Positions 9,305 to 63,522 of a DNA stretch of 64,000 nt are shown here, piece after piece; the first letter of the stretch is position 1; each line of letters starts with the position of its first letter. The notes beneath the pieces were generated by a model, which was given only the letters and a program-made list of their open reading frames with translations, made no database searches and was not told the DNA's origin. A program made the translations under genes and the position numbers. Origin of the DNA: Eledone cirrhosa (lineage: Eukaryota); assembly GCA_964016885.1 (NCBI GenBank), contig OZ024740.1, positions 51,088,001-51,152,000 of the forward strand. Reading direction: 5' to 3'.

Positions 9305-12272
9305 GATGAAAATTGTTTTACAAAATCTTCCACGCTTGCATGGGTTTGGATGGGAGTTTTCCCACTTGAGGCAAAATTGGTTGTCTTGCTCGTGTAGGAC
9401 TGTCTGGCGGGTTTTCTACGGCTGGATGCCCTTCCTAACACCAACCACGTTTAGTGTGGACTGGGTGTTTTTTACCGTGTTACTTGCACGGCCACATTAC
9501 AGCGTGGACTGTGTGTTTTTTTTTCGTGACACCTACACGACCTCATATATTTCGAACGGGATGTTGTGGTACCAACATAACTTTACATCGAAAGGGGTGG
9601 TGTGGATGGGGTGGGGTGGGTGGGACGGGGGTGTATTTTTGTTAGAGGTGCCTACTGAGTGTAGGTTTCGCTTTGTACTTAGGCAAGGCGGGTCTTCTGT
9701 ATTACTGTGTAGCGCCAATGATCTCGGTCCAGTGACATTGTCTTGGAGAGGTGTAAGTGTGTGAGGTCGGAATTTATCAAGTCGTCCCAGGTTTTTCTGG
9801 GTCTGCCTACTCCATGGCTACCGTCTATTTTTATCGCCCTGCACTTTTTTATACAGCTGTCGTCTTTCATGCGCATCACGTGACCATACCAACGTAGTCT
9901 TCTCTCGAGTAAACAACATCTGATTCCTCTTATTCCTAATTTCTCCCTTAGTTCATTTATGCTTTGCCGTTCACGTATATTACTATTACACATCCAACAG
10001 AGCATGCAAGCTTCGTTCCTCTCCAGTCTGCGTATATCCTCTGCACACAATGCCCAAGTCTCACTGCCATGTAACATTGCTGTTCGTATGCAGGCATCGT
10101 ACAGCCTGCCTTTCATTTTTAGAGAGAACCCTTTAGCGGCTAAGTGGTATAAGCTCTCTGAACTTTTTCCATCCAGTTCTGACTCTAGCTACTGTACTTT
10201 CAGAGTACCCTCCCCCACTGCTGATTTTGTCACCCAGGTAACGGAAGGTGTCCACTATTTCTATAGAACCATCTGTGCAATGGAATGAGCTAGTATTCTG
10301 TGGGCACTTGCTGCTACTTATTGCACCTGAGCACCGGCCACATATAAAATCTATATTCTTAGTTAGCTTACCTGTGATACCACTACATCTTTTATGCACC
10401 CATACTTTGAATTTGAGACATAAAATGGAGTTTCTGCGTACTCCTTTCCTACACACTGAACATGGCCATTTCCCAGATGGGATCAGTGCCCTATTTTCCT
10501 TCCTACAAACTAGAACTTTAGTCTTAGACAAGTTAATTTTAAGGCCTTTTGATTCTAGGCCATGCTTCCATGTTTGGAATTTCTTCTCTAGTTCAGCCAT
10601 TGATTTAGCTATGAGCGTTAGATCATCTGCGTATAGAAGTTCCCATGGGCAGCCGGTCTTGAACTCCTCTGTAATAGCCTGAAGGGCAATAATAAATAGT
10701 AAGGGGCTAAGGATGGAGCCCTGATGAACACCAACTTTTACGCTAAACTCTTCACTATATTCGTTGTTAATTCTAACCTTGCTGACTGTTTCTTTATACA
10801 TGGCTTGTATAGCTCTCACAAGCCATTCATCAACACCTAGTTTTCTAAGGTCCCACCAGATAATCGAGTGGGGTACTCTGTCAAAGGCTTTCTCCAAGTT
10901 AACAAAAGCTAAGTATAGGGGTTTACTTTTAGCTAGGTACTTCTCCTGTAGTTGTCATACAATGAAAAGAGCGTCTGTTGTACTTTTGCCTGACACAAAC
11001 CCGAACTGCATTTCATCTAGATCAATTCGCTCTCTGATTAGTTGCGCTATTACTTTTTCTGTGACCTTCATGACCTGGTCAATTAATTTAATGCCTCTAT
11101 AGTTTCCCCTATCTAGGGCATCTCCTTTACCCTTGTAGCAGTTAATGATGATGCTGCTGCACCAGTCCTTCGGAACGACCCCATTCTGTATGACTTGGTT
11201 TACTATCCGGGTGACCATGGTGTGTCCCACCGTTCCAGATGCTTTCAACATTTCAGCAACTATTTCCGAAGGCCCAGCCGCCTTGCCTGTCTTCATGTCT
11301 TTGATCGCCTTACTTATTATACTACCTTCAACTTGCACTGCTGGTCTCTCTATTGGGTCGAAGTAGGGGAGACTGTCTTTCTCCCAATTATTCTCTTCAT
11401 TTAGTAGCCTTTCGTAGTGACACTTCCAAGCTACCTTCTTATCAGCGTCAATGATGGCAAGTATACCATCATCATTAAGGACACACTTCTCCCCGACAAT
11501 ATCATGGTTTTCCTTGACACATTGCCTAGCAATCCTGAACACCTCACATTTTTGGTCCTCGCGTTGTAGAACATTCTTGAACTTTCTTTCCTCTGCTTCC
11601 CTTCTTGTGAAGTACACTTGTCTCCTAGCTTCCCTCCTGGCCACTTGATAGTCTTCTCTACTTCTCCCATCCCGCCATACTTTCCAAGCCTGCTTTTTGG
11701 CCTTGATCGACTCTTCCACCTTACTGTTCCACCACCAAGTTACTCTCCTCCTGCCTATAGGTCTGCTCCAGCCACAGATTTTATCTGTCGCCTTCAGCAG
11801 GTTAGCTTTCAGGAATTCCCACTGTTCCTCTATATTGTACGACTCTAATTGCTCTTCCTTACTGTCAAAAGCATCAAGTAATATGCTTTTAAATTTATTA
11901 CTGGCTGTGGGGTCCTTTAGCTTCCATATTTTTCTCCTGAGGATAGTCCTCCTCTGTTGTCGAGTATGTCTCGTCCTGACTATGAGGTCGCTAACTATGA
12001 GTCTATGTTGGGAGGTGCATTCTTCATGGGGGAGGGATTTAGTGTTTACAACAGACACTCTGTCACGTCTTCTGGTAAGGATATAATCTATCTGACTGGC
12101 GTGTTCCCCTGATCTATAGGTGATCAAGTGATTGTCTCGTTTTTTGAAGTTAGTGTTACAGATAGTTAGATTATTTGCATCACAGAATTCCAGGATTCTG
12201 GATCCTTCTTCATTTCTAGTACCAAACCCATAGCCTCCATGGATTCCATCATAGCTGTCACGGTGTTGTCCA
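9305..12272 (-). mobile_element. RTE-clade LINE, 5'-truncated, frameshifted
   Basis: End of APE endonuclease (TYRSG...SQIDYIL), RT (NYRGIKL, EMQFGF, KAFDRV, GVHQGSILSP, LLYADDL), Cys/His-rich insert, C-terminal RLRWYGHV...GRPRKTW, and family 3' tail. Confidence 0.95.
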
Positions 12273-12423
12273 ACATATATATACATATATATACATATAT
12301 ACATACACACATATATATACATACACACATATATACATACACACAAATACATACACACACACACATATATACACACACACACACATACACACACATACAC
12401 ACATATATATATATATATATATA

Positions 12424-13310
12424 CAGGGAGCGGACAATATTTGTTTGCAATTTTCAACTGCTAATTTTATGCAAACTTTTTTTACTTCCGTTGTCACTCT
12501 TGTTTTCATAAAAACAGTGACTATATTTCCATTATTTATTTTCAGAATAATTGATTATGAATAATTTTGAACCTCCAAATTTGTGGAAGAGACACGGAGT
12601 TCTTCTTGGAATCCGCGCCGGGAGGACAAATAAGACCAGAAGATCAACTCCCAGAACAATAGGTGGCTCGCTGTCTCATCCAAAGACGTGCCCAGAGTCA
12701 TGCAGACAAAGTTTCCAGCGACAACATTGGTCTTAGGTGTCGTCAGTAGTCAAGGTGACGTCATGCCACCTCACTTCTTCCCTGAGGGCCTCAAGCTGAA
12801 CACCGATGGCTACATCCACATTCTGAGCGAGGTAGTAAAGCCCTGGATCGACCAGGTAGCTGCAGGTAGGCCGTACGTGTGGCAGCAAGACTCAGCGCCC
12901 TGCCATACCAGCCGAAAGACCCAAGCCTGGCTGTCAGAGAACTTCGTCGACCACACTTCACCTGACATCTGGCCTCCCAGCTCGCCTGACTGCAACCCCC
13001 TCCACTTCTTTGTGTGGGGCGTAGTGTAAAGAGACACCAACAGATCTAGCTGCAATACGAAAGACGATCTGAAGGCCAGGATCACAAGTGCCTTTAGGGG
13101 CCTAAGTCGGGGGACAGTGACGAAGGCCTGTAGCCGGTTCCGAGGCTGACTTGAGACCGTCATCAAAGCCAATGGCGAGTTTATCGAGTGATATCGAAAG
13201 AACAAGTCATGAAGACAAACTGACACAAGTTTGATAAATATATCTTAAAAAATAAAACTACTGTTACTTTTTCCTAGACAGTAATCTTGCGAACAAATAT
13301 CATCCACACC

Positions 13311-17523: not shown

Positions 17524-20290
17524 TTAAAGGTGCATGTATAGTACATAGAATAATGTACAAATGTCAGGAAAGTGAACAGTGTATGAGTCATGATATACAT
17601 GTGTGCGTGTGTATGGAGGGGGTTTATCAGGTGTAGTGTTGGAGAATTTCAGGACGCATGGAGGTTTTAAAAGGTGCAGTGTCGTGGCAGCTAACAACTG
17701 ATGCAGGGAGTTTGTTCCATGCTTCAGCAACTCTGAGCATGAAAAAATGTTTCCGAAAGTCATGGGAACTGTGCTGTTTTCTGACTTTGTGGGCATACCC
17801 ACGTATGTAAGACACATGAAAATCAAAAGGGTGCTCAGAGTTGTTGTTGGCAAGATGGTTAATAATTTTGTGGGTGTTTACCAAGTCAGTTGCCAGGCGT
17901 CGGAGCTTCAATGTATCCATGCCCAGGGAAGCAAGGCATTCAGAGTATGGTAGATGTCTGATGAAGGGTATTCGCTTGGTTGCACGTCTCTGAACAGTTT
18001 CTAGGTGGTCAATGTTCTGAGCAAGATAGGGGTTCCAGACTGGTGATGTAAATTCTAAGTGTGGCCGCACCATAGCTATTTACAGCTTTAAATAGATAGC
18101 TGGAGAGCGGCTGACAAAGGTCTTGCAGAGTGATGCCAAGACACCTTCGGCCTTCTCGACAATTTTAGAGACGTGCTTTGTCCAACGTAAATCGCTGCTG
18201 ACAGTAATGCCCAGGTCACGTTCACAAGAAGACTTCTTGATATTAGTGTTGTGGAGGGAGTATGTGGACACTGGGTCTTTTCTCCCAAAATGCATGGTGG
18301 TATAATTGTCCACAGCCAACTTGAGTTGCCAGTCCATGATCCATTGTTGCATTGTGTCCAGGTCAGATTGTAGGCAAGATCTATAGTGTTCAGGACCTGT
18401 CCTTTTTATCTCAAGGTACAGCTTGATGTCATCTGCATATTTCCGCACTGTGGCATTCTTTAAGTTGGCATCTATGTCATTAATATATGCCACAAACAAA
18501 AGGGAACCAAAAACAGATCCCTGCGATACACCAGATGACATCTATAGGGTGAAGAATACTGTCCTAGAACCGTAGCTACCTCTTTTTGACTGAGACTGAG
18601 ACTAAAAATTTCATCCTTCACACCCATTGCAGAGATTTTTGCCATAAGTCTTTTGTGTGGCACAGAATTAAAAGCTTTAGAAAAGTCAAGGTAAACAACA
18701 TCAACCCATGAGCCGCTATCAGTGATCTGGCTGATGTCTTCAAGAAAGTTGATAAGTTGATCACAGCAGCTGGAGTTAGGGATAAATCCAAATTGCGAGG
18801 GCCGGATAAGACTGTGAGAATTCCAGAAGTTCCAGAGTGTTTCTCTAACACAGGATTCCATCAATTTGGCAATGTAGCTAGTAAGACTGACTGGACGATA
18901 GTTGACAGGCGACGTGCGGAATGACACTGGCAGTTTTCCACTGCTCTGGAGTAGCACCGTTATTAAGACAGAATTGAAAGAAGCGATATAGCTGGTGCAG
19001 AAGGAAGTACCCACCACATTTGAGAAGCAGGTATGTAACACCATCAAGACCAGTAGAGATATAGTTGCGTTTATTCTTAAGGTGATGTCACAGCATTGCA
19101 GGTATAAATTTCATAGTTGTTATAGAATTTGATGTCAGAGGTGGTGGAGATGGTACGTTTTGGCTTTCAACAGTAAAAATGCCTGTATAGCATTTAGCTA
19201 TGAGTTCTGCACATTCTTTGGGATTGTCAGTAATCTGGCTTGTGTGGGGATTATGGAAGAGGACCAATTGGAGAGTGAGGTCTCTGCTTTGAATGTACAT
19301 ATTTCCAGAACACCTTACTGTCAGTGTTCGTTGCTATGTGCTGTTCAAATTCAAGCACTGCTTTTTTTGTCACCTGCTTCAGATAGTTGGATGATTTATT
19401 GCACTTTTTTCTATTGATACCTGATTTATGCAGTTTGCATTCCCATTCAGCATTACGGTGTTCTTTCCTGGCAAGTCGACTGCTGCAGTCTCCCAAATTG
19501 CATTTTTTTAGATGTTTTTTGTGCTTACGTGGTACTGATGCTGGACATGCTGTCCATATTAGGTTCAGGATGTTCTGAAGTATAGTGTTCACATCTCCTG
19601 AGTCGTAAAATTCAAGCCGGTTTGGGCATTGTAGCTCGGTGCAGTAAGAGTTCCAGTCTGCTTTATTCCAGTCAAAATGAGCAGTTTGGAGATGGTTGTG
19701 GTTTTTGTTACTGCCTATAAGAGACAGATTGGCAATGATCATAGCATGATCAAAGTCACCTAAAGGTTCCTCAGTAGTAACACTAATAACCGTTTCAGGA
19801 GTAGTGGTAAAGAGTAGATCCAAAGTGTTGTCACCTCTTGTTGGGGAGGTGACTACTTGGGACCAATTCGAGTCCAGCGCTAGCTCAAGGAAATCATTTG
19901 CACTTTGCGGCCAATGAAAGGTTCTCCACTCAATCTCAGGGTTATTGAAGTCCCCTGCAATAAAAACACAAGTGGCTGTTTTCCTTCCTGGCAGTAGCTC
20001 TGAAGATATCACAGAGCTGTGTGTCCTGATGGTAATTTGGGGTGCAGTAAACAACTCCAAGTAGAAGTGTTGACATGGTCATACGTATGTCGCAGAAAAA
20101 TACTTCTTCTTGTGTTTGGTTCAAATCAACGCAAGGAATTGCTGAAAAGTTTCTAAAGTATAGTTTTGATTCCTGCTTAAAGTCATTTTACTTCACTTAC
20201 CTCACTAATTCCCTTGGAATGGGTATGAACATCACACCAACACACAACATATATCACTCCCTCCTATGTCTAGTTAAAATAAACTAGTGT
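17524..20290 (-). mobile_element. CR1/L2-group LINE ORF2, decayed
   Basis: Endonuclease (AGDFN, PTRGDNTLDL), RT (NYRPVSLTS, SQFGF, VYLDFSKAFNSVPH, GVSQGSVFGS, KYADDIKL, ERDLG), and C-terminal VRPHLEF..PVWNP..QRRATK...WNKLP; split by frameshifts. Confidence 0.93.
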
Positions 20291-28371: not shown

Positions 28372-28510
28372 ATCTACATATTCTTTAGCAAGGGATGTTT
28401 TCTGGACTGCATGGACTTCATCTCCTGTTGCAGATACAACTGGTTTTAGTTCTGTTGGACGAAGTTCTGATAATGGGGTTACTTTTGGTTTCCAGATAGA
28501 TACAGCACCT
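28372..28510 (-). CDS. PDLIM-family gene, post-PDZ linker exon
   Basis: Acceptor cttattttag, donor GTAAGT; 139 nt, phase 2 to phase 0. Joins the PDZ exon in frame (AG+A=R): RGAVSIWKPKVTPLSELRPTELKPVVSATGDEVHAVQKTSLAKEYVD. Confidence 0.88.
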
Positions 28511-29511
28511 CTAAAATAAGAATTGTATTAATAGAGACAATTAATTCTCTCTTTTTTTTTTTCTTCTTTTATTTAGACAGTGTATTTAAGACAGCATTAT
28601 ACAATATGTTCCTTCCTTTTAAAGATAGAGTGTAATTTGAAGGAAATCTGGCTGCTATTTCCAGTAATTTGAACAAACATATACCAAGCACTATTGGCCA
28701 GTTGTTGTTGTCTAGTTTGAGATCAACTCTAATCGAGTGCACCAACGGCATATAGAAGATCAGTATAAGAATTTAGAGCAAACCATATCTACATATATAT
28801 ATTATTCCCATCTAAGATCAACTCCAGTATTTGACAGGTATTTTATTTTATCAACCCTAGGAAGATAAAAGGCAAAGTTGACCTCAGAAGGATTTGAATT
28901 AACTACAAATATTGTGTTTGACATGATCATGACAATTTGTCAGTAATTTGATCTTAAATACAAAATATTTTCAGTGTTGGTAGCACAGTAGGTAACATGA
29001 CAGGTAATATACAGTTTATTAACATCTTCAGTATAAATTAATGATTTTATACTTAGGAATAAAGCCTAAAGACTAAAATCTTTTTCCAACAAGCTAATGC
29101 ATATGTATGCATGTGTGTATGTGCGTAAACATACATTTATACATATGAGTATCCATGCTAGCATGGAAGATAGACGTTAAACGATGATGATGATGATGAT
29201 GAAATGCGCAAACACAGACGCACTTACAAAAATACAGACATACATTCACACAAATGTACATACATTTACACAAACACACACATATACTCACACACAGCAT
29301 AACAAATAGAACACCAGCCGCTGTTTTGCTATAGTTTTTTCACCATCTCCTTCCTTCCTTTTACACACACAAACACATTCACACAAACAAATACACACAT
29401 TGTGTGACAGACGGAAGTCGCTTAAATTTATATATAGAAGGGCATCAACAAGTATTTTACTAGTATTTATTTTAAGATCAGAAGGATAAGCAAAGATGAC
29501 CTCAACAGGAT

Positions 29512-29933
29512 TTAACCCTTTAGTATTTACATTACTCTCTCTATATATTATTATATTTTCATGGTAAACACTTTATCTCACATAATATCAAATCAATGAG
29601 ATTTTGATATTATTTATTTTGAGAATACCATAACCCTTTAGCATTTAAACTGGCCATATCCGGCCAGAATTCTCTCACCTCTTTCAGTTCAAACTGGCCA
29701 CTCATGCTGATGTTAAGGTATTATTCTCAAAATAAATAATATCAAAATCTCGTAGATTTGATATTATGTGAGATAATATGTAAGATAAAGCCTTTACCAC
29801 AAAAATACAATAGTAAATATAGAGTAATGTAAAATGTTAACATCAGTATGAGTGGCCAATTACGGCTGGTTTGAACAGAAAGAGGTGAGAGAATTCTGGT
29901 CGGTTATGGCCGGTTTAAATGCTAAAGGGTTAA
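29512..29933. mobile_element. piggyBac-like MITE with a nested copy of the same family
   Basis: TTAA-CCCTTTAG...CTAAAGGG-TTAA ends; inner opposite-orientation copy at about 29630-29840. Confidence 0.75.
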
Positions 29934-30088
29934 ACAGTTTGTCGTTGTTATCTGAATCCCTTTTATATCCTTCAAACTGAATGCTTAATATTCACAAAAT
30001 GTAAGATGCACAGGATATATATATATATATATATAAATATATATAGTGAAAGAGTGAAGAATAACAGTCGGCTGTACAAAAAGGGTTT

Positions 30089-30206
30089 TATTTACAGTAT
30101 TAACAACTGTTTCATTGATCAGGTGAGTCTAAAGGCCCCTAATCACTTGAAATTGCGTCATTCGACCTTAAATACAGTGTGTGTCTCTGATCAAATCATC
30201 GGAATA
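30089..30206 (-). ncRNA. type I hammerhead motif with extended loop II (family C)
   Basis: TATT-CCGATGA-tTTGATCAG[64 nt]CTGATCAAt-GAA-ACAGT.tgttaat.ACTGT-A-AATA, with AATAAA directly after the cut site; U4C core variant; element lies next to (TA)n. Confidence 0.62.
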
Positions 30207-30421
30207 CTGGAGGGTGTAACATATGGCATTGGTATTTATAGATACATCAGAGAATCAAGTGAATGAAAACAATAACATCAATAATAAAAGATAATAATAA
30301 AGAAGTAAAAATGAAAACGATAAAGATGTAAAAAATAAATACAAAATAAGTACAAAATACAGTTGTGATGGTAGTTGAAGTTGTAATGGTGAGTAAGTGG
30401 ATGTGTAAAATAGTGATGACA

Positions 30422-30468
<47 letters not shown>

Positions 30469-31789
30469 TCATCATCATCATCATCGTTTAATGTCTATTT
30501 TCCACGCTAGCATGGGTTAGACGGAAGTTGTCCCACTTGAGGCAAGGTTGGTCGGGTGACCATGTCTCCCTCGTATAGGACTATCTGGAAGGTTTTCTAC
30601 GGCTGGATTCCCTTCCTAACACCAACCACATTTACAGTGTGGACTGGGAACTTTTTACCGTGTTACCTACACAACCACATTACGTGGACTGTGTGTTTTG
30701 TTTTTTTTGTGGTGACACCTATTATCTCATTATCTCATTAATTTGGACTGGATGATATATATATATATTAACATTCCATTGATGTTTAGCATAACATCAA
30801 TAGGTAATTACATAACATAATTAGGCATCACTTGAACCGAATTGCCACTGTTGACAGCGTAATTAGTAGAACACTCCTCATTAAGTTCTTCTCCTTAAAT
30901 AGTTAAATAATCTAACAGTGCTATCACTCGACACCATAAATTTACATAAATACATACATAGTACATATACATTTACATATATGCACATACATATGCATAT
31001 GTTCCTACATACATAAACATACATATATACACACACACACATGTATGCATGTATACACACACACACATAAATGCATACATATATGATGGCTGCATCTCGA
31101 TTTCCAGAATTGCCACCACCTGATCCCCTTCTCACACATGGGTGGCACGAATATGACTTTTTAGCCCTGCCAAGGACTTACATTCCCTTCTGCATATACT
31201 GCAATAATGAACATTACTTCCACTTTGGTTCCCTGTTTTATTTTAGTGAGCTTTCAAATGATGTTGGGATCCGCTAACCAAAGCACTTTGTTTTCCACTT
31301 TTCCAACAGGAAGAAATGCTAAAGAGACCATAAACAGCAACATTTTATGATGACTTCTATGACCAGCTTTACTGAGGCAAATCTGGCTACACACATTTGA
31401 TATAAAGTCATTTTGAGCATCTGAAATTTTTCATGCTCCACACAAGATTTTTCAAATTCTTGTTTTCCTCTAAGATGATTTATATAAAACAATGTCTTTC
31501 CAATTATCTTCTCTGATTTTTTTATTTTATCAAAGTTCTTTTGATGCAGTTTTATACATGAGTTTTGGTTTATGACTTGGCCATTTGCCTTTGACTAAAA
31601 GTACAGTAACTGCTTGAGAAATATGATGATTTGACATTCCTACAACTTTGCTGCTATATTGAATTATGAGAGATTCAACTTTCAAAATGACTTCCTTCCA
31701 ACTCTTCAACATCACTCATATGTTGAGTACAGATACTCAGTAATACTGAGTATTCAGTAAAAATACTGTTGATGAAAATATTCAAGTAT

Positions 31790-32715
31790 TTTTATATTTC
31801 GGTGGTAGGTGATCCAAGTTTCACATGTATACAGCAAAGACAACAATACACATGTTGTATACACTTTTAATTTTGTATCAATGGAAATCCCATGATGACA
31901 CCAGAGGTGCCCATTTAATTTACCAAAAGAATCACTTGCTTTTTTTAATCATAACAAGATTTGATCATCAAGGCTGTTTGTCATGTTAACTGTGCTGCCT
32001 AAATACACAAATTTATCCTCCACCCTAAATGTTTAGACCAGGCTCAGTGAAATCCTTGCCTGGAGCACGTTGATATATGACAACTGTCTTGGCTAGACAT
32101 TGTCAGACCCAACGTGCTTTCAGCCTCCGACAAAGAATCCATTAGGTGCTGCATGTCACTCTCAGAGTGAGCAACAAGATCACAATCATTAGCATACAAA
32201 AATTCACATATTAAAGAAGTGAACACCTTTGTTTTGGTAGCAAACCAACTGATGTTAAACAACTTACCTAGTAAACGATATTTGATATAGATTCCATGTG
32301 TGCAGTCTTCAAATGCCTTAAGGAAAACCATAGAGAAATACAATGCAGAGTAGGTGCAGGTATATCTCCTTGTTTTACCACATTTTCAACAAAATGTCAG
32401 TTATGAGTAAAGTCTTGTATAAGATCATGCTGGACAGATTGTTTGATAACATCACTGGCAATGTTTTTCCTGAGTCACAGTGTGGCTTTAAAAATGGCTG
32501 ACGGACAACAGACATGATCATCTCTGTGAGACAATTACAAGAAAAGTGGATTGAACCAAGAATAGATTTCTACCACATATTTGTTGACTTGACAAAGGCT
32601 TTAGATACAGTGAATACAACTGCCTAATAGAAGATTATAACTAAGCCCAGTTGTCCTGACAAGTTTATATCAGTTGAGTTTTCCTGATGGTATGTAAGTT
32701 TGTGTTAGTATAGAT
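31790..32715. mobile_element. BovB/RTE-like RT fragment with internal inversion
   Basis: Minus 31790-32390 encodes EFLYANDCDLVAHSESDMQHLMDSL; plus 32400-32715 encodes the upstream RT part ESQCGF...VRQLQEK...FVDLTKA. Confidence 0.75.
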
Positions 32716-34513
32716 GGACACACACACACACAATTATATGGATATAAAAAAGGAGAAAGGAAAGTCCTTGCTGGAGTTCTTTTAATTATTTCTATACTGG
32801 AAGATTATAGTCAAAGCTAAGAAGATGATAGTCAAAGTGCTGAGTGTATCCAAGAGTCAAAAGTTTCTGTCACACAGTCACCACCACTGCACAGTTATTG
32901 CACTTAATTCTCTACTCCTTTTTTCACTTAGCAGTCAACTAATACAATGTATTTTTGCCCACCAAAAATCCAGATGTGATTCTTCCTCATTCCTTGAGAA
33001 AGAACACGTGACCCCTGCTGCTATAGTTGATACTATAGTATTAGCAGCAGAGACATTACATTGAGCAGTTGGCACACAGAACAAAACCCCTTGTTGATAA
33101 AGTGTTTCCGCATTCAATCTTGATACAGTACACACTTGCGCATTGCATAATTTGGAGTGTTAATTTAGGATTCACAGAAACCAATCGAATATATTTTATA
33201 ATATCTATCGACTAGGGCAGGTGCATATTAACCTGTTTGTATTTTTGTTGTTGTAGCAGAAGTTGTGGCATTCTTTTACCTAGCCACAGTTTTCAATTTG
33301 TCACACCATAACGTATGTTTATTACTCTAAGATTTGATTTATCAATATCATCTTATTAAGTGCTTGTCAAAAGCACCTGAGAATTGTCCCTTCAAGAGAT
33401 GCTGCATTAGCTGCAATTTCAATTTTACACACGATCATATATATATATGTGTGTGTGTATATAATTAGAAATAGAAGCTTTCGCCATGTTCATACATGTG
33501 CATCAATACTCATCTTTCCCATTTCTTAGAGGGTTCTAAACCCCACTATCAGGCTAAAATTTCTTTAGTAAAAAAATACAGCGAAAGCTTCTATTTTTTA
33601 TTTCAAACTTGCTCGCTGTTTCAAAACATACTTACTTGTCATTTATATATATATATACTTACAACTAACAGTTTGCTACAAGAGTACTGTATTTACTTAT
33701 TATCTCATGTATGAGTAAAGTCAACAAGGAAAAACCACAATAAAGAGCTATAGAGTATAATGATGATATATATTAGTTTATAGATTATTTATTATCAAGT
33801 GTTTTTGTTAGCTTAGCCCTTTGATATTAAACTGCCTGAAGCCACCCTGGATTTGTGATACAAAACTGCTCATTTTAAAAGGTTTATCCGTATATCAAAA
33901 CCTTACATCATAATTTTATTTTAGAAACTTATGTTCAGCAATGCTCTAAATATCAACTTAGTTATTTTTGAAATTCTGCCAAATTTTGTCTATTTTCAAA
34001 TTAATTGAAACACATAGGTAGTGTTTTTCATTAGATATGTGATAATGAAAGAGTTAGAGTGCTAAAATGAATGTCTCTTATGATCCTAGCTGACTTGCCT
34101 GGTAGATAAACTGAATGAAAGCCAAACTTTCAGTGTTGTCATCAACTTCATCACCACCCATACACACAACAACTTATGAGTTATGGAACTCACCAATCAT
34201 CAAGAGCCCACTAGCAGACTGGAGATAACCTTAGTGGTGGTCTTAATTAAATTATAGATTAATTTAAGGAATTGTTGTAGATTAATATAGAAGGAAAACA
34301 GTAAAAAACGATGTTGTTGCAAAGAGATGTATTTAAGAGAGAGATTAACTAAAAGCAATATTTAGTATGAAGTTTAGTGGAAGGTGAGGCAGATTATGGG
34401 AAACAGGAAAAGCAAGAGTGGATTCATCAAATATGCTTAAATGTGAAAGGTTAGCAAAGAGTTTGCAAGAAGATCAGAGGGGAAGTGGTAGTTGGGAGAT
34501 GGAGTGATATATA

Positions 34514-34551
<38 letters not shown>

Positions 34552-34634
34552 ATAATAATAAATTTGAAGACTAAAATCCAAAGAGGGCTCGATAAGGATA
34601 AATATATATCAAATATATAAAAACCGTAGAGCAA

Positions 34635-34762
34635 ATATTTATTAAAATAACAGATTAAAGTTTAGCAAAGAATCGCTGCTTTCACCCTTAACGGGATCTT
34701 CAGAAGATCCCGTGAAGGGTGAAAGCAGCGATTCTCTGCTTAAACTTTAATCTGTTATTTTA

Positions 34763-34770
<8 letters not shown>
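34635..34770. ncRNA. palindromic double hammerhead motif (family B)
   Basis: Near-perfect palindrome centred on 34702. Minus: CTGAAGA-tCCC.gttaa.GGGt-GAA-AGCA...TGCT-A. Plus: cAGAAGA-tCCC.gtgaa.GGGt-GAA-AGCAG.cgattct.CTGCT-T. The 5' strand of stem I is lost at the inversion junction. Confidence 0.65.
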
Positions 34771-34804
<34 letters not shown>

Positions 34805-34808
<4 letters not shown>

Positions 34809-34985
34809 GAGCTTCTACAGGACTAGAACTGTAGGACTAGAACTGTTTCATTCGAATGAAATCATCAGGTATGAAATAGTTCTAGACCTATATAAAATAA
34901 ATATTCCTATACTCTACCAATGTATTGAGTACCTTTTTTAACTGTTGTCATCTGATACCCATTGGGAATCCACCCATAATTATAT
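34805..34985. mobile_element. family A hammerhead element, rearranged copy
   Basis: Minus strand CTGATGA(34868-34862)tttcattcgaatGAAACAGttctagtc with a 14-nt tandem duplication (34819-34846); family tail on plus strand. Confidence 0.65.
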
Positions 34986-34994
34986 AAATGGATA

Positions 34995-36927
34995 GATAAG
35001 GTAAGTTAGTTAGAGTAAGCGACAGAATTATCAAACTGAGAATAGTCACAGGCTAATAATAATTATCTCAAGCTATCACCACAAGAAACAAAAGGACTGC
35101 TTCTATGAACAACTTTCACAGACAACCTTTGTTACAAATGACAGAGACCTCATCATGTTAGCTGGTGACTTCAATGGGCATGTTGGACAGTACCAGAATA
35201 GATACACTAGAGTACACAATGGATATGGTTATGCTGATTCAAATGAACTATTTGCATCACTAATTTCAAGAAACCAACCAACAACCTGGTCACTTATCAA
35301 TCAGGTGAACATACAAGCCAGATTGATTTTGTAATTGTTAGAAAATGTGACAGGCTGATAATTTTGAAAATTAAGTTCATCATTAAGTGCACCACACAAT
35401 ATAAATTAGTTATTAGTCACATCAGAATAAGCTTTAGTCCAACCAGACAAAGGGTGTTTTGACAGTGGAACAACACTATGGATAGAGCTGTTAAAGAAAA
35501 TAGGCTGGCATGAAAAGACTGGAGAAAGGGGGGACAGTAAAGATTGTTATCATGTAGTAGCTAAAAGAGAAGCTAGATAACAGGTATACATAACTTGCAG
35601 AAAAGCTGAAATTGGGAGGTTTACCAGTGTCTTGTGATGTGAGGATCAGATATGTAAGATGTTCCTTATCACTAAATAGTGTATCCATGATAACCATAAC
35701 CAGGACGTTGTTGGAGAAAAGTGTGTATGGAATGATACTGGCACACTCAGCATCATGGAAACCTAAAGAATGAGTTCTGGAAATGCTGCTACGAGAGACT
35801 AATGATTGTGGAGAATGGATGCGAGGAAGAGAGACTACCTCTAGCTGACACAACAAAGGAAACAGCTAAGGGAAGTAGGAGTTAAACTAGTCACCCATAT
35901 AATCAATCAAGTAATACAAGATGGAGTCATACTCAATGACTGATGTAGTAGTATACTCATCAATTGCTACAAGGGAACGGGTGATGTGCTAGAAAGGAGC
36001 AATTACAAGTGATGAAAGTGACAGAAAGAGTCTTAGCATAATTAATTAGGCAAACAGTCAAATTAGATGAGATGCAGTTCAGCTTTGTGCCAGGAAGAAA
36101 TATTACACAAGGCCTACAAGGGAAGTTCCTGGCTAAGAATAAACCACTATATTTAGCTGCCGTTGACCTAGAGAAGGCTTTTGATAGAGTACCTCAATCT
36201 CTCATTTGGTGGTCTTTAAGGAAACTAGGCATATAAAAATGACTTGTAAAAGAGCAGTGCAAGTCATGTACAGAGAAGCTGTTAGTAAGGTGAGAGTAGG
36301 CAATGAGTTTAGTAAGAAGTCAATGTGCAAGTAGGTGTACATCAGGGCTCCATCATCAGCTCACTCCTGAAGGCCGTAACAGAGGAGTTTAAGGCAGATT
36401 GCCCATAAAAATTCCTGTATGCTGACGACTTGAATCTAATAGCCAAATTTGAGGAAGAAACAGAACTTAGAATCAAAAGGGCTTAAAGTAAACTTGAGAG
36501 AAACTAAAATTCTGGTAAGCAGGAAAGTGTCCCTGCTCAATAAATAGACAAGAAGAAAGTAGTAACTCTATCCGTTGTACACAATATAAATCTTGGGTAC
36601 ACAGGAGGTGTAGTGGTATAGTAGGCAGACTAACAGAAAAGGTAAATTTTGTATGCAACAGGGATAGTTAACAGTAAAATCACAAGTAAAATAAATGTTT
36701 TCCAAGGTGATAAAATTAGTTGTGGAGGAGGCTGCACAGAGAGCATAATAGCTAGAGTAATAACAGGATGGAAAAAGTTGAGGGAGCTACTACCTCTGTA
36801 GACAGCAAAAGGTTTATCTCTATGAAAGAAAGGCTGGCTGTATGATGCATGTATACAAAGTGCAATGTTGCATGGTAGTGAAGCATGGGCAGTGAATGTA
36901 GATGATATTCAAAGGATTGAGAGAAAT
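34995..36927 (+). mobile_element. RTE-clade LINE, old degenerate copy
   Basis: Residual motifs AGDFNGHVG, SQIDF, LDEMQF, DLEKAFDRVP, LYADDL, LHGSEAW; many stops. Confidence 0.88.
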
Positions 36928-37060
36928 CAGGAATGAAACAGTTCTAGTCCTGTAGAAGTCGTTTCTATATAAAAATAAAGATGCCTATACTTTACCAACA
37001 TATTGAGTGCCTTTTTAGCTGTGATCATCTGATACCCTTCGGGAATCCACCCATAATTAT
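36928..37060 (+). mobile_element. family A hammerhead element, 5'-truncated copy
   Basis: gaatGAAACAGttctagtcCTGTAgaag followed by the family tail ending gggaatccacccataattatata; the CTGATGA half is missing. Confidence 0.65.
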
Positions 37061-38869
37061 ATATATATATAATTATCCCACCCTTGCAAGCAGGGAAAAG
37101 TGGACGTAAAATGATGATGATGATAGAAGAGGGGGGGGGGGGTAATACTAAGAATGCAAAATAGTGGAAGCATAGTGTTAAAAACTGAAATTTGCAGATC
37201 ATGCAGCATGTATTTTGGGGGATGCAGTCTAAGATTGCATATATGTATATGAAGATGGATACATTTTACAGATTGTGTAAACATTACTCTATTTGTACTT
37301 TGTAAAACACCAAAATAGCTGAAGTATTTTCTGATTCCCAAGAGGAAGAAACCTAGTCTTTGTGATGGAGCCTTAACAATGTGTAAAATAAGAGAGTTAT
37401 GAAAGACAAATAGGTATTGCACTTATAAAAATATTTAATAAGTTAGAACCGTGCCAATCCTATGAAATGAATGCAATGTTGAGGAGAAGGGTTAGTGAGA
37501 TTTCACTACTCTTGTTGGTAGATTAAGCGAACGATACAGGCCCACTCATTGGTCAATAAAGTGGGTTTGTTTGCAGAGATTGTGTTTATATATCTTTTTA
37601 ACTTTTTGGTACCAATCCACCTGAAACCACTCCTGATTTTATGATACTGCTCATTTTAAAGTGTTAAAATTATATCAAAACCTGCCACCATAATTTTATT
37701 TAAGAAACTTTTTGTTAATTGATATTTCAAACATCAGCTTAATAATTGTTTTATAGAATTCCTCCCAATTTTTTTATTATTTTCAAAATTAATTGAAACA
37801 ATAATGTGACAGTGTTAATAGTCTTGATGTCTGGCACAAGACTATAACATGTAAAGAGAGTGTATACTGAATTGAATTAACTTCAATATGTGTCTAATAG
37901 CTATTCTATCACTGAGTAAACCCAAGTGGGATTTGAACTGATAAGATTAGAGAACAGAACTAAACACCTACAAATGGAAACATATTAAAGGAAAGGTAAA
38001 AGATTTCTCTTTGCTACCGCTAGAACAAAAGGATGACGATAGTCATCTAAAACACATTGACTTTGCCTTTCATCCTTACGGGGTCGATAAAATAAAGTAC
38101 CAGTAATGAACTGTGTAATTGCTGGCCTTGTGCCTAAAGTAGAAACAATTATGAGGCTGTTTGCTTGCAAATGAATTGAATATAATTACATTATTATTAT
38201 TATTTGATATAAAACTCACGAATGCATAGAAAATAATGTTTTGTTTGAAGGCTACCACAATGGGAATTGGATGGTAAATATTAAAAATATGGTGATAACA
38301 ATGATGTTGCAATTCTGGGCAAGGTTTGTGAGTGTGTGGAAGGTCAGCAGATGTCCTTGTATGCAAGTCTCCTCTCTCTATGCCACCAATGTTGTTCAAG
38401 GGAAAGCTTGGTGCCAGTATTATCACAGATGAACTTAGAATGTCTCATAAGACTATAGAGCAGCACTTAGAAAGTTCCTCTTTTTTGTGTGTGTGTAGAA
38501 GACTAGCAGTCACCCTCACATGCAAGTTCTCTTCTTCCATACCACCAATATTGTTCAAGAGAAAAGCAAGGGCTGATACAACTTGACACAAATGACAGAT
38601 AAACAAATGAGATACACAAAGCATCATGTTGATGCTTTAAAATCCTTCCAATCCACTTCCATGGACATGTATTTTATTTATCAACCTAAAGAAGATGAAA
38701 ACAAAACTGATATGAACTCAGAACACAATGAGCCAGAGCTGTAACAACTTTGCCAATTTGTCATATTGAACTGTCTTCATGACCCTCCCAGGAACAAGTG
38801 GGCAAAGATCTTGAATAATGTATTTAGACAATTTACTAGATTCCTATAGATACTCACTGCCTTAAACAC

Positions 38870-39940
38870 TTACACACATATACATATCAACCATTTATTC
38901 ATACACACACAACATATCAACCATCTATTCACACACACACAACATAACCATCCACATACAATGTATTCATTCACACACACAACACATCCATCCATCTACA
39001 CACATCCATCCATTCATCCACACACACACAACACATCCATTCACACACAACATAACCATCCACACACACAACATAACCATCCACACACATAACACATCCA
39101 TCCATCCATCCATCCACACACACAACACATCCATCAACACACAACACATCCATCCACACACAACACATCCATCCACACACACAACATAACCATCCACACA
39201 CACAACATAACCATCCACAAACACAACATAACCATCCACACACACAACACATCCATCCACACACAACACATCCATCCACACACACAACACAACCATCCAT
39301 ACACACAACATAACCATCCACACACACAACACATCCATCCACACACACAACACATCCATCCACACACACAACACATCCATCCACACACAACACATCCATC
39401 CACACACACAACATAACCATCCACACACACAACATAACCATCCACAAACACAACATAACCATCCACACACACAACACATCCATCCACACACAACACATCC
39501 ATCCACACACACAACATAACCATCCATACACACAACATAACCATCCACACACACAACACATCCATCCACACACACAACACATCCATCCACACACACAACA
39601 CATCCATCCACACACAACACATCCATCCACACACACAACATAACCATCCACACACACAACGTAACCATCCACACACACAACATAACCATCCACACACACA
39701 ACACATCCATCCACACACACAACACATCCACACACACAACACATCCATCCATACACAACACATCCATCCACACACACAACATAACCATCCACACACACAA
39801 CACATCCATCCACACACACACACAACACATCCATCCACACACAACACATCCATCCATCCACACACACAACACAACACAACCAGCTACACACACAACCCAT
39901 TCATTCATCTATCCACACACACACACAACATAATCATCCA
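38870..39940. repeat. 19-21 bp minisatellite (ACACACACAACACATCCATCC / ACACACACAACATAACCATCC variants)
   Basis: Direct reading; produces the spurious C/V/W/D-rich ORFs. Confidence 0.95.
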
Positions 39941-39954
39941 TTAACAATCCTTAC

Positions 39955-63184: not shown

Positions 63185-63522
63185 CATGGCTTAGTGGTTA
63201 GAGCATTGGTCTTGCAATCGAAAGGTTGTGAGTTCAATTCTCAGACCAGGTGATGTGTTGTTTCCTTGAGCAAGACACTTTATTTCACATTGCTCCAGTT
63301 TACTCAGCTGTAGAAATGAGATGATAGGGACTGGGGTCCTTATCATTCCACTGCAAAGTGGTCGTGGAGGTGCCACAGCAAAAAAGCACCCAGCACTCAC
63401 TGTAAAGAGGTTGGTGTTAGGAAGTGCATCCAGCTGTAGAAATCAAGCCAGAATCAGTTCCCGTCCCACCCTTGCAAGTAGGGAAAAAGCGGACATAAAA
63501 TGAAATGATGATGATGATGAAA
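63185..63522 (+). mobile_element. tRNA-derived CORE-type SINE with RTE-derived tail
   Basis: A box (tggcttagtggttag), B-like box (gagttcaattc), CORE-like ttgagcaagacacttt...ctcagctgtagaaatg, then tail ggttggtgttaggaag.gcatccagctgtagaaatcaagcc shared with the RTE 3' end. Confidence 0.85.

What the first reader, a model, noticed from the sequence alone, without database searches (positions are those of the whole stretch)
30040..30265. Intronic sense-strand hammerhead with a 64-nt insert in loop II and a U4C core
Seen: an 8-bp stem II (30115-30122/30187-30194) encloses 64 nt; 5-bp stem III; 4-bp stem I; core CCGAUGA; AAUAAA begins right after the GUA site. It lies on the same strand as the PDLIM pre-mRNA, about 1.6 kb upstream of the 28510 acceptor. 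Inference: a discontinuous hammerhead that short-motif searches would miss; if active it could cut the intron or couple cleavage to polyadenylation.
Basis: partly seen in the sequence, partly recalled or inferred. Interest (0 to 1): 0.72.

Follow-up and report, generated by a model that had tools for sequence, protein, structure and literature searches.

The report
Long-armed hammerhead in Penelope retrotransposon tail
This is the cut-off tail of a common jumping gene sitting in an intron; it carries a predicted self-cutting RNA whose unusually long, structured arm is shared by thousands of copies in the genome, and this lone, worn copy likely does not cut the host's RNA.

Summary
The motif is real and lies on the sense strand of a PDLIM intron, but it is not a host-specific discontinuous ribozyme. 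It sits in a 380-nt, 5'-truncated 3' end of a Penelope-like retroelement with Hydra-clade motifs, inserted in (TA)n. About 5,200 pattern matches in the genome share the architecture. Relatives show a 7-bp stem I, a palindromic (dimer-type) stem III and a GUU site, with the cut predicted at 30102/30101. The 64-nt 'insert' is a family-wide helix-II extension with compensatory changes. C4 is not damage to this copy: it is the main state of several subfamilies (2,469 C4 against 2,724 U4 matches) and switches at least four times on an endonuclease tree, while the other core bases stay fixed. This copy has four private changes that weaken the predicted fold and no complete sense partner in the scanned 154 kb, so intron cleavage is unlikely. 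AAUAAA lies downstream of the cut. No cleavage was shown. The scan has already noted this long-armed family in this genome and others. New variant of a known kind.

The parts
30044..30423 (-). 5'-truncated 3' end (3' UTR / pseudo-LTR) of a Penelope-like element, between (TA)n tracts
   Evidence: Homology to sibling loci starts near 30423 and stops near 30044-30046; longer siblings carry the endonuclease frame upstream and RT plus endonuclease (L157)
30203..30209 (-). stem I, 5' strand (pairs with 30101-30095; 7 bp)
   Evidence: proximal pairs covary across subfamilies
30196..30202 (-). first core half C3-C4-G5-A6-U7-G8-A9 (U4C variant)
   Evidence: C4 in 28 of 29 siblings
30187..30195 (-). U10.1 (mismatched with U11.1 at 30114) and helix IIa, 5' strand
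30123..30186 (-). 64-nt structured extension of helix II: helix IIb 30169-30163 with 30138-30132; helix IIc 30160-30155 with 30146-30140; conserved GU/AC pairs 30175-30174 with 30128-30127
   Evidence: the G-C pair 30163/30138 is broken in this copy
30114..30122 (-). helix IIa, 3' strand, and U11.1
30111..30113 (-). second core half G12-A13-A14
30103..30110 (-). 8-nt near-palindromic stem III (perfect palindrome in the family; A>G at 30107 here gives two G.U pairs in a dimer)
   Evidence: (self-duplex -3.4 against -6.4 kcal/mol)
30101..30102 (-). predicted cleavage site after G-U-U17 (between 30102 and 30101)
   Evidence: Inferred from the register; position 17 is A, C or U in 39 of 39 aligned rows and U or C in 29 of 29 endonuclease-selected hits
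30095..30101 (-). stem I, 3' strand
30087..30092 (-). AAUAAA, 10 nt downstream of the predicted cut; likely the element's own polyadenylation-type signal
   Evidence: At +9/+10 in most copies of 13 of 18 clusters; AUUAAA at that place in the printed members of clusters 7 and 17
28511..39954 (-). host intron of a PDZ-and-LIM-domain (PDLIM1/3-like) gene
   Evidence: tblastn of named PDLIM proteins, about 90% identity on both flanking exons; GT donor and AG acceptor seen

Best explanation
The motif is the type I hammerhead carried at the 3' end of a Penelope-like retrotransposon with Hydra-clade protein motifs, left in a PDLIM intron as a 380-nt truncated copy that is likely inert and decaying. 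Shown: the element's identity, copy number, the conserved register (7-bp stem I, palindromic stem III, NUH triplet), the covarying helix-II extension, and U/C switching at position 4 among subfamilies. Inferred: in tandem element transcripts two motifs would pair through their stem-III palindromes into a double hammerhead and cut after GUU, slowly and probably with help from the element's own protein; the long helix II is a selected RNA domain, most likely a protein-binding or core-positioning arm that lets weak cores (C4, mismatch at 10.1-11.1) work. A single copy such as this one has no partner and would stay uncut, so the host intron is predicted to be unaffected.
For: Sibling copies are 93-95% identical, 2,458 first-look candidates with 40 scored. 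The same motif lies downstream of RT and GIY-YIG frames; 29 of 31 loci picked by the endonuclease alone carry it. In 29 full-length hits from those loci the ten fixed core positions have a mean top-base frequency of 0.97 against 0.82 for other columns, while N7 and N4 vary. Proposed structure on 39 rows from 15 clusters: 83% of cells paired, 14 of 34 pairs with two-sided change, covariation score 0.288 against 0.18 shuffled and 0.05-0.12 slid; one pair of the extension is C-G or U-A in all 15 clusters. C4 2,469, U4 2,724, G5A 176 matches, so CpG decay cannot explain the split; at least 4 switches are forced by well-supported branches. Double hammerhead against two free monomers: about 3 kcal/mol better in 4 of 4 siblings, 3.4 kcal/mol worse in this copy. 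Within the subfamily the core decays about as fast as the rest, 7 of 290 against 106 of 3,045. Literature: dimer-type PLE hammerheads with low activity (PMC4209133); Hydra-clade table with palindromic stem III, U.U at the base of stem II and GUU sites (PMC8557442 File S2); protein-assisted cleavage of an anole PLE hammerhead (PMC11167929).
Against: No cleavage or RNA data. RNAalifold on the same 39 rows recovered only 3 pairs, and 2 of the 5 measures were not beyond the shuffles (89 and 169 of 500). The structure was drawn from these sequences, cells are not independent events, and the core and palindrome were fixed by the search pattern in most rows of that alignment. Distal stem I is only 59% paired across subfamilies. 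Helix II closes with high probability in only some individual copies. 5' ends of truncated copies do not pile up at the predicted cut, 1 of 94 listed places. Pfam names none of the element's proteins, and the clade call rests on motifs, not on a tree with reference RTs. The protein-binding role of the arm is not tested.
Confidence: 0.8

Rival explanations
1. The fold is kept for a non-catalytic job (a handle for the element's reverse transcriptase, or a 3'-end signal beside AAUAAA), and the C4 lineages no longer cleave at a useful rate.
For: U4C strongly lowers activity in vitro (PMC3088659 discussion). Position 10.1-11.1 is a mismatch in 14 of 15 clusters. Copies end about 55 nt or more downstream of the predicted cut, so the copied RNA was uncut there. 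In the anole element, cleavage is not needed for insertion in vitro. No pile-up of ends at the cut.
Against: Catalytic positions G5, G8, G12, A13, A14 and the NUH rule stay conserved across diverged lineages, including C4 lineages. U4C keeps enough activity in vivo for a viroid, and U.U is the best-tolerated mismatch.
Confidence: 0.25
2. One reading: this copy folds alone in the alternative register (5-bp stem III, 4-bp stem I, GUA) and cuts the PDLIM intron or couples cutting to polyadenylation.
For: The A>G change at 30107 does complete a 5-bp hairpin stem III, and the motif is sense-strand intronic. The change raises the predicted weight of that register about 100-fold over siblings, 2e-6 against 2e-8.
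Against: That register remains about 40-fold rarer than the family register with stem III open (2e-6 against 7.6e-5) and competes with a 7-bp stem I. It is not conserved. The core is C4 with a U.U mismatch. AAUAAA would lie on the 3' product. The copy differs from the sibling majority at 5 of 125 positions against a mean of 4.2, as expected of drift.
Confidence: 0.04
3. The motif is a chance arrangement of short words in AT-rich intron sequence.
For: The single-sequence fold is unremarkable, z = -1.0; no Rfam match.
Against: Thousands of homologous matches against 1-3 control matches, covariation and fixed linkage to a PLE endonuclease.
Confidence: 0.01

Closest known systems
Hammerheads of Hydra-clade Penelope-like elements (Craig et al. 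2021, PMC8557442; seen: passages, section 11, supplement parts 1-2 with File S2, and passages of File S4)
   Same: Type I motif near the 3' end, palindromic stem III, GUU/GUA/GUC sites, U.U or another mismatch at the base of stem II in many rows, (TA)n targets, the same protein motifs; an octopus member (Hydra-1_Obim) is listed
   Different: The listed Hydra rows have 3-7-bp stems II with 3-10-nt loops and all read CUGA; here helix II spans about 78-84 nt with two further helices, and position 4 is C in about half of the matches
Minimal hammerheads of metazoan PLEs (Cervera and De la Pena 2014, PMC4209133; seen: first 2 of 4 parts of the text; supplements not read)
   Same: Dimer-dependent architecture, 7-8-bp helix II, palindromic helix III, mostly single truncated copies, low activity in vitro
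   Different: They report a conserved G10.1-C11.1 pair and a shorter helix I; no long helix-II extension or U4C in the parts read
Hammerhead of the anole Poseidon element PAc (PMC11167929; seen: passages)
   Same: PLE pseudo-LTR hammerhead upstream of the insertion end and optional tail
   Different: Other clade; its ORF starts in stem II; cleavage was shown and needs the element's protein, which is untested here
U4C and U10.1-U11.1 natural core variants (Perreault et al. 2011, PMC3088659; seen: passages and section 8)
   Same: Both deviations are known singly and keep some activity
   Different: U4C is cited there for a viroid variant; here it is the main state of several retroelement subfamilies with thousands of copies
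Discontinuous Clec2 hammerhead (Martick et al. 2008; paper not held; seen only as a citation and in a search listing, details recalled)
   Same: Core halves lie far apart in a host transcript
   Different: As recalled, Clec2 is a host 3'-UTR ribozyme conserved at orthologous loci with a long variable spacer; this motif is a mobile-element part with a length-conserved, paired arm
Non-LTR retrozymes (PMC7229834, passages; bioRxiv 10.64898/2026.07.22.740005, first of 5 parts)
   Same: Type I hammerhead in a short high-copy repeat related to PLE pseudo-LTRs
   Different: This copy is not a tandem non-coding monomer; its siblings run upstream into the endonuclease frame

Membership tests
Penelope-like elements with C-terminal endonuclease | RT followed by a C-terminal GIY-YIG endonuclease upstream of the repeat | tested here: met
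   L157 (this subfamily's motif downstream of YRDD, WFNP and YIG frames), L149, L049. Read by motif; Pfam gave no significant hit
Penelope-like elements with C-terminal endonuclease | 5' truncation, inverted partner copies, optional 3' tail | tested here: met
   Inverted partners in L010, L011, L015; two 3' end classes
Hydra clade of PLEs | RWK and DKT motifs | tested here: met
   RWK and DKT in the broken upstream frames of L049; DKT in L149 and L150; definition
Hydra clade of PLEs | [quoted passage not shown] | tested here: met
   Read by eye in the frames: linker present, one cysteine between IVY and YIG, CxxC before E and CRH after N
Hydra clade of PLEs | insertion into (TA)n | tested here: met
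   Window copy flanked by (TA)n on both sides; many siblings likewise
Hydra clade of PLEs | placement with reference Hydra RTs in a tree | not tested
   Reference proteins were seen in a supplement but no tree was built with them
Hammerhead ribozyme, type I | core C3, G5, A6, G8, A9, G12, A13, A14, A15.1-U16.1, H17 | tested here: met
Hammerhead ribozyme, type I | U4 | tested here: not met
   C4 in this copy and in 28 of 29 siblings; a known active variant
Hammerhead ribozyme, type I | paired 10.1-11.1 (usually G-C) | tested here: not met
   U.U here, mismatch in 14 of 15 clusters; U.U is known in natural hammerheads
Hammerhead ribozyme, type I | three helices around the core | tested here: met
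   Helices I and II covary; helix III is an 8-nt palindrome suited to a dimer
Hammerhead ribozyme, type I | match to an Rfam hammerhead model | tested here: not met
   No hit at gathering score or at E up to 10
Hammerhead ribozyme, type I | site-specific self-cleavage | not testable with these tools
   Needs an in vitro assay
Discontinuous host hammerhead (Clec2 type; definition recalled) | locus-specific motif whose halves are parted by unconstrained sequence | tested here: not met
   High-copy mobile motif; spacer 78-84 nt and paired
Non-LTR retrozyme | tandem non-coding monomers, each with a hammerhead | tested here: not met
   Single copy in the window; siblings continue into coding sequence

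The most novel reading that the evidence does not exclude
This retroelement lineage uses a distinct hammerhead subtype in which an 80-nt, three-helix arm II binds the element's own protein and props up an otherwise weak core, so that U4C could become the main state of several successful subfamilies independently; thousands of sense-strand intronic copies would then be latent switches, cut only when the element's protein or a partner RNA is present.
Probability: 0.25. Interest if true: 0.62.

Novelty: new variant of a known kind. Interest (0 to 1): 0.36.

Why it matters
The single intronic copy is ordinary transposon debris. The family matters in two ways. First, thousands of hammerheads with an 80-nt helix II escape Rfam and short-spacer descriptors (7-17 nt in PMC8557442), so PLE families scored as lacking a ribozyme may have long-armed ones. 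Second, natural U4 and C4 sister subfamilies with the same arm give a ready comparison for an open question: whether PLEs need their ribozyme to cleave, and what the element's protein does for it.

Tried and rejected
Rfam, whole window at gathering score and 29500-30800 at E up to 10: no hammerhead. U4 as mere CpG decay of C4: rejected, because the mirror change G5A has 176 matches against 2,724; within this subfamily the exact 23-mers are 332 C4, 57 U4 (4 in one tandem, 7 in one cluster) and 20 G5A. RNAalifold consensus: only 3 pairs, not supportive. A core-versus-rest decay figure was circular (rows chosen by the core) and was dropped in favour. Ends at the predicted cut: 1 of 94 listed places, no pile-up; only the first 100 of 1,225 rows were seen. 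Partner for a dimer within the same gene: the window, 80 kb upstream and 10 kb downstream hold only an antisense complete copy and a half sense copy in intron 1; the gene's 3' end was not located. Expression: no RNA holder listed; three contig sets of one sample showed repeat depth only and no usable empty-site joint. Pfam on 8 element frames: nothing significant. Lunse et al. 2017 and Martick et al. 2008 were not held; Lunse et al. may list long-stem or U4C PLE variants that I could not see. Paper searches for a prior description returned none that describes this arm in the listings or passages seen; most listed papers were not opened.

Full report
Observation. All named pieces lie on the minus strand: CCGAUGA 30202-30196, an 8-bp helix 30194-30187 with 30122-30115 around 64 nt, GAAA 30113-30110 and AAUAAA 30092-30087. 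The exon at 28510 is 91% identical to proteins that their sources name PDZ and LIM domain protein 1 or 3 of octopods. These proteins map exons at about 40106-39955 and 28510-28372, with GT and AG ends, so the motif is sense-strand in an 11.4-kb intron. Rfam reports no hammerhead, and the single-sequence fold is not unusual (z -1.0).

It is a repeat. A search of the genome gave 2,458 first-look candidates, 40 scored, with siblings at 93-95% identity. Homology runs from 30423 to about 30044, between two (TA)n tracts. Longer siblings continue upstream into a frame that ends in a CxCX5C linker and an IVY..YIG endonuclease; related loci hold up to 620 open codons with RT motifs, and L157 has this subfamily's motif downstream of RT and endonuclease frames. 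RWK and DKT occur in the N-terminal part. These are the features that Craig et al. give for the Hydra clade of Penelope-like elements (PMC8557442, section 11). Pfam named none of 8 frames, and I built no tree with reference RTs, so the clade call rests on motifs. Of 31 loci chosen by the endonuclease alone, 29 carry the motif.

The register. In 28 of 29 siblings the bases after GAA are a perfect 8-nt palindrome; this copy has A>G at 30107. Reading the palindrome as stem III gives U17 at 30102 (GUU) and a 7-bp stem I (30209-30203 with 30095-30101). On an alignment of 39 of 117 collected segments, from 15 of 18 clusters at 85% identity (clusters 6, 11 and 15 left out as one damaged copy and two of another family), the two core-proximal stem I pairs hold in 35 and 36 of 39 rows, the second as U-A, C-G or U.G, while distal stem I varies (59% paired overall). 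In this copy the pair probabilities are 0.68-0.96 for the 7-bp stem I against 0.001 for the 4-bp one. The predicted cut is therefore 30102/30101. This is the dimer-type architecture described for metazoan PLE hammerheads (PMC4209133; review PMC6765202).

The insert. The stretch between the core halves is 78-84 nt across subfamilies only about 57-85% identical to this copy. It folds into helix IIa, a 7-bp helix IIb and a 6-bp helix IIc. The whole model has 83% of cells paired, 14 of 34 pairs with two-sided changes and a covariation score of 0.288, against 0.18 in shuffles and 0.05-0.12 when slid. By cluster, one IIb pair is C-G or U-A in all 15, and others switch between G-C and A-U. Against this: two of five measures did not exceed the shuffles, RNAalifold found only 3 pairs, the model was drawn from these sequences, and single copies often misfold in prediction. 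I regard the arm as well supported but not proven.

Position 4. Genome-wide, the spaced pattern gives 2,469 matches with C4 and 2,724 with U4 (controls 1 and 3; a few matches belong to other families). The mirror CpG change G5A gives only 176, so both states are real lineage states. On a tree of 32 endonuclease-coding stretches (31 places; L121 and L153 are one), the label changes 5 times, at least 4 forced by well-supported branches; the tree has no outgroup, and single U4 tips may be CpG decay. In 29 endonuclease-selected full-length hits the ten fixed core positions have a mean top-base frequency of 0.97 against 0.82 elsewhere; N4 is C 16, U 10, G 3, N7 varies, and position 17 is U or C. 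So the core is conserved in lineages that carry C4. U4C is known from a viroid, with much lower activity in vitro but enough in vivo, and U10.1-U11.1 is a known tolerated mismatch (PMC3088659). The Hydra table shows U.U and GUU often, but loops II of 3-10 nt and U4 throughout.

This copy. It differs from the majority of 20 equal-length siblings at 5 of 125 positions (mean 4.2), one of them a polymorphic site; one change breaks a IIb pair and one turns the palindrome into a weaker duplex. Predicted closure of helix II is 0.06 against 0.98 in 7 of the 11 siblings listed. Among siblings the core decays about like the rest (7 of 290 against 106 of 3,045), as expected after insertion. No complete sense partner lies in the window, the 80 kb upstream or the 10 kb downstream. 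I infer that the intron is not cut at a meaningful rate.

AAUAAA. It starts 10 nt after the predicted cut and sits at +9/+10 in most copies of 13 of 18 clusters, with AUUAAA in the printed members of two others. It is part of the element. Lying on the 3' product, it cannot polyadenylate an upstream cleavage fragment; cryptic use as an intronic poly(A) site is not excluded and was not testable.

Mechanism. Shown: identity, register, arm, U/C switching. Inferred: tandem transcripts form double hammerheads and cut after GUU; monomers stay uncut and serve as templates, which fits insertion ends downstream of the site and the anole element, whose hammerhead needs the element's protein and is dispensable for insertion in vitro (PMC11167929). 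That the arm binds the element's protein is a hypothesis; it also appears in earlier notes of this scan and I reuse it. Truncated copies do not pile up at the cut (1 of 94 listed places), so there is no genomic trace of cleavage in this family.

Earlier notes. My reading was recorded before the look-up (no look-alikes by sequence). By words, the scan has noted this long-armed family in the same genome (e1-9903353) and similar ones in other genomes. One note on another genome calls a U4C hammerhead eroding (e1-10346284); here the rest of the core is conserved in C4 lineages, which argues against erosion for this family. One note on a non-coding element in this genome reports broken ends at the cut (e1-8664355); I did not see that here.

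Novelty. PLE hammerheads, Hydra elements in octopods, U4C and U.U variants are each in print. A conserved 80-nt helix II with repeated U4C subfamilies was not found in my searches, but Lunse et al. 2017 could not be read and the supplements of PMC4209133 were not opened. Verdict: new variant of a known kind at family level; the intronic copy itself is ordinary. Interest 0.36.

Noticed in passing
window 29564-29936: A long inverted-repeat element directly beside the finding, with very high depth in the contig sets; looks like a miniature inverted-repeat transposon.
   Followed up: no
window 63187-63244 (+): tRNA-like match just over the gathering score, likely the head of a SINE.
   Followed up: no
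L160:2827-3004 (G000:C1:51164827-51165004): Second insertion of the same family in intron 1 of the same PDLIM gene: a complete antisense copy joined head to head with half a sense copy.
   Followed up: partly
L127, L138, L164:5828 (+), L049:4670 (-): Other hammerhead-like families in this genome with 50-76-nt helix II regions of different sequence and palindromic stem III, so long arms are not confined to one family.
   Followed up: no
L031-L034 (G000:C1:73305751-73305965): Four copies of the 5' half of the motif packed at 56-80-nt spacing, three in tandem and one inverted.
   Followed up: no
G000:C4:203858021-204604936: Seven U4 copies spaced 80-160 kb apart, suggesting a large tandem segmental duplication.
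   Followed up: no
window 9682-12460 and 17527-20078 (-): Long frames resembling two LINE-type reverse transcriptase elements within the same gene (names from recalled motifs, no family search run).
   Followed up: no
clusters 7 and 17 (e.g. L089, L146): AAUAAA downstream of the motif is replaced by AUUAAA, the second commonest polyadenylation hexamer (recalled), which hints at selection on that signal.
   Followed up: partly
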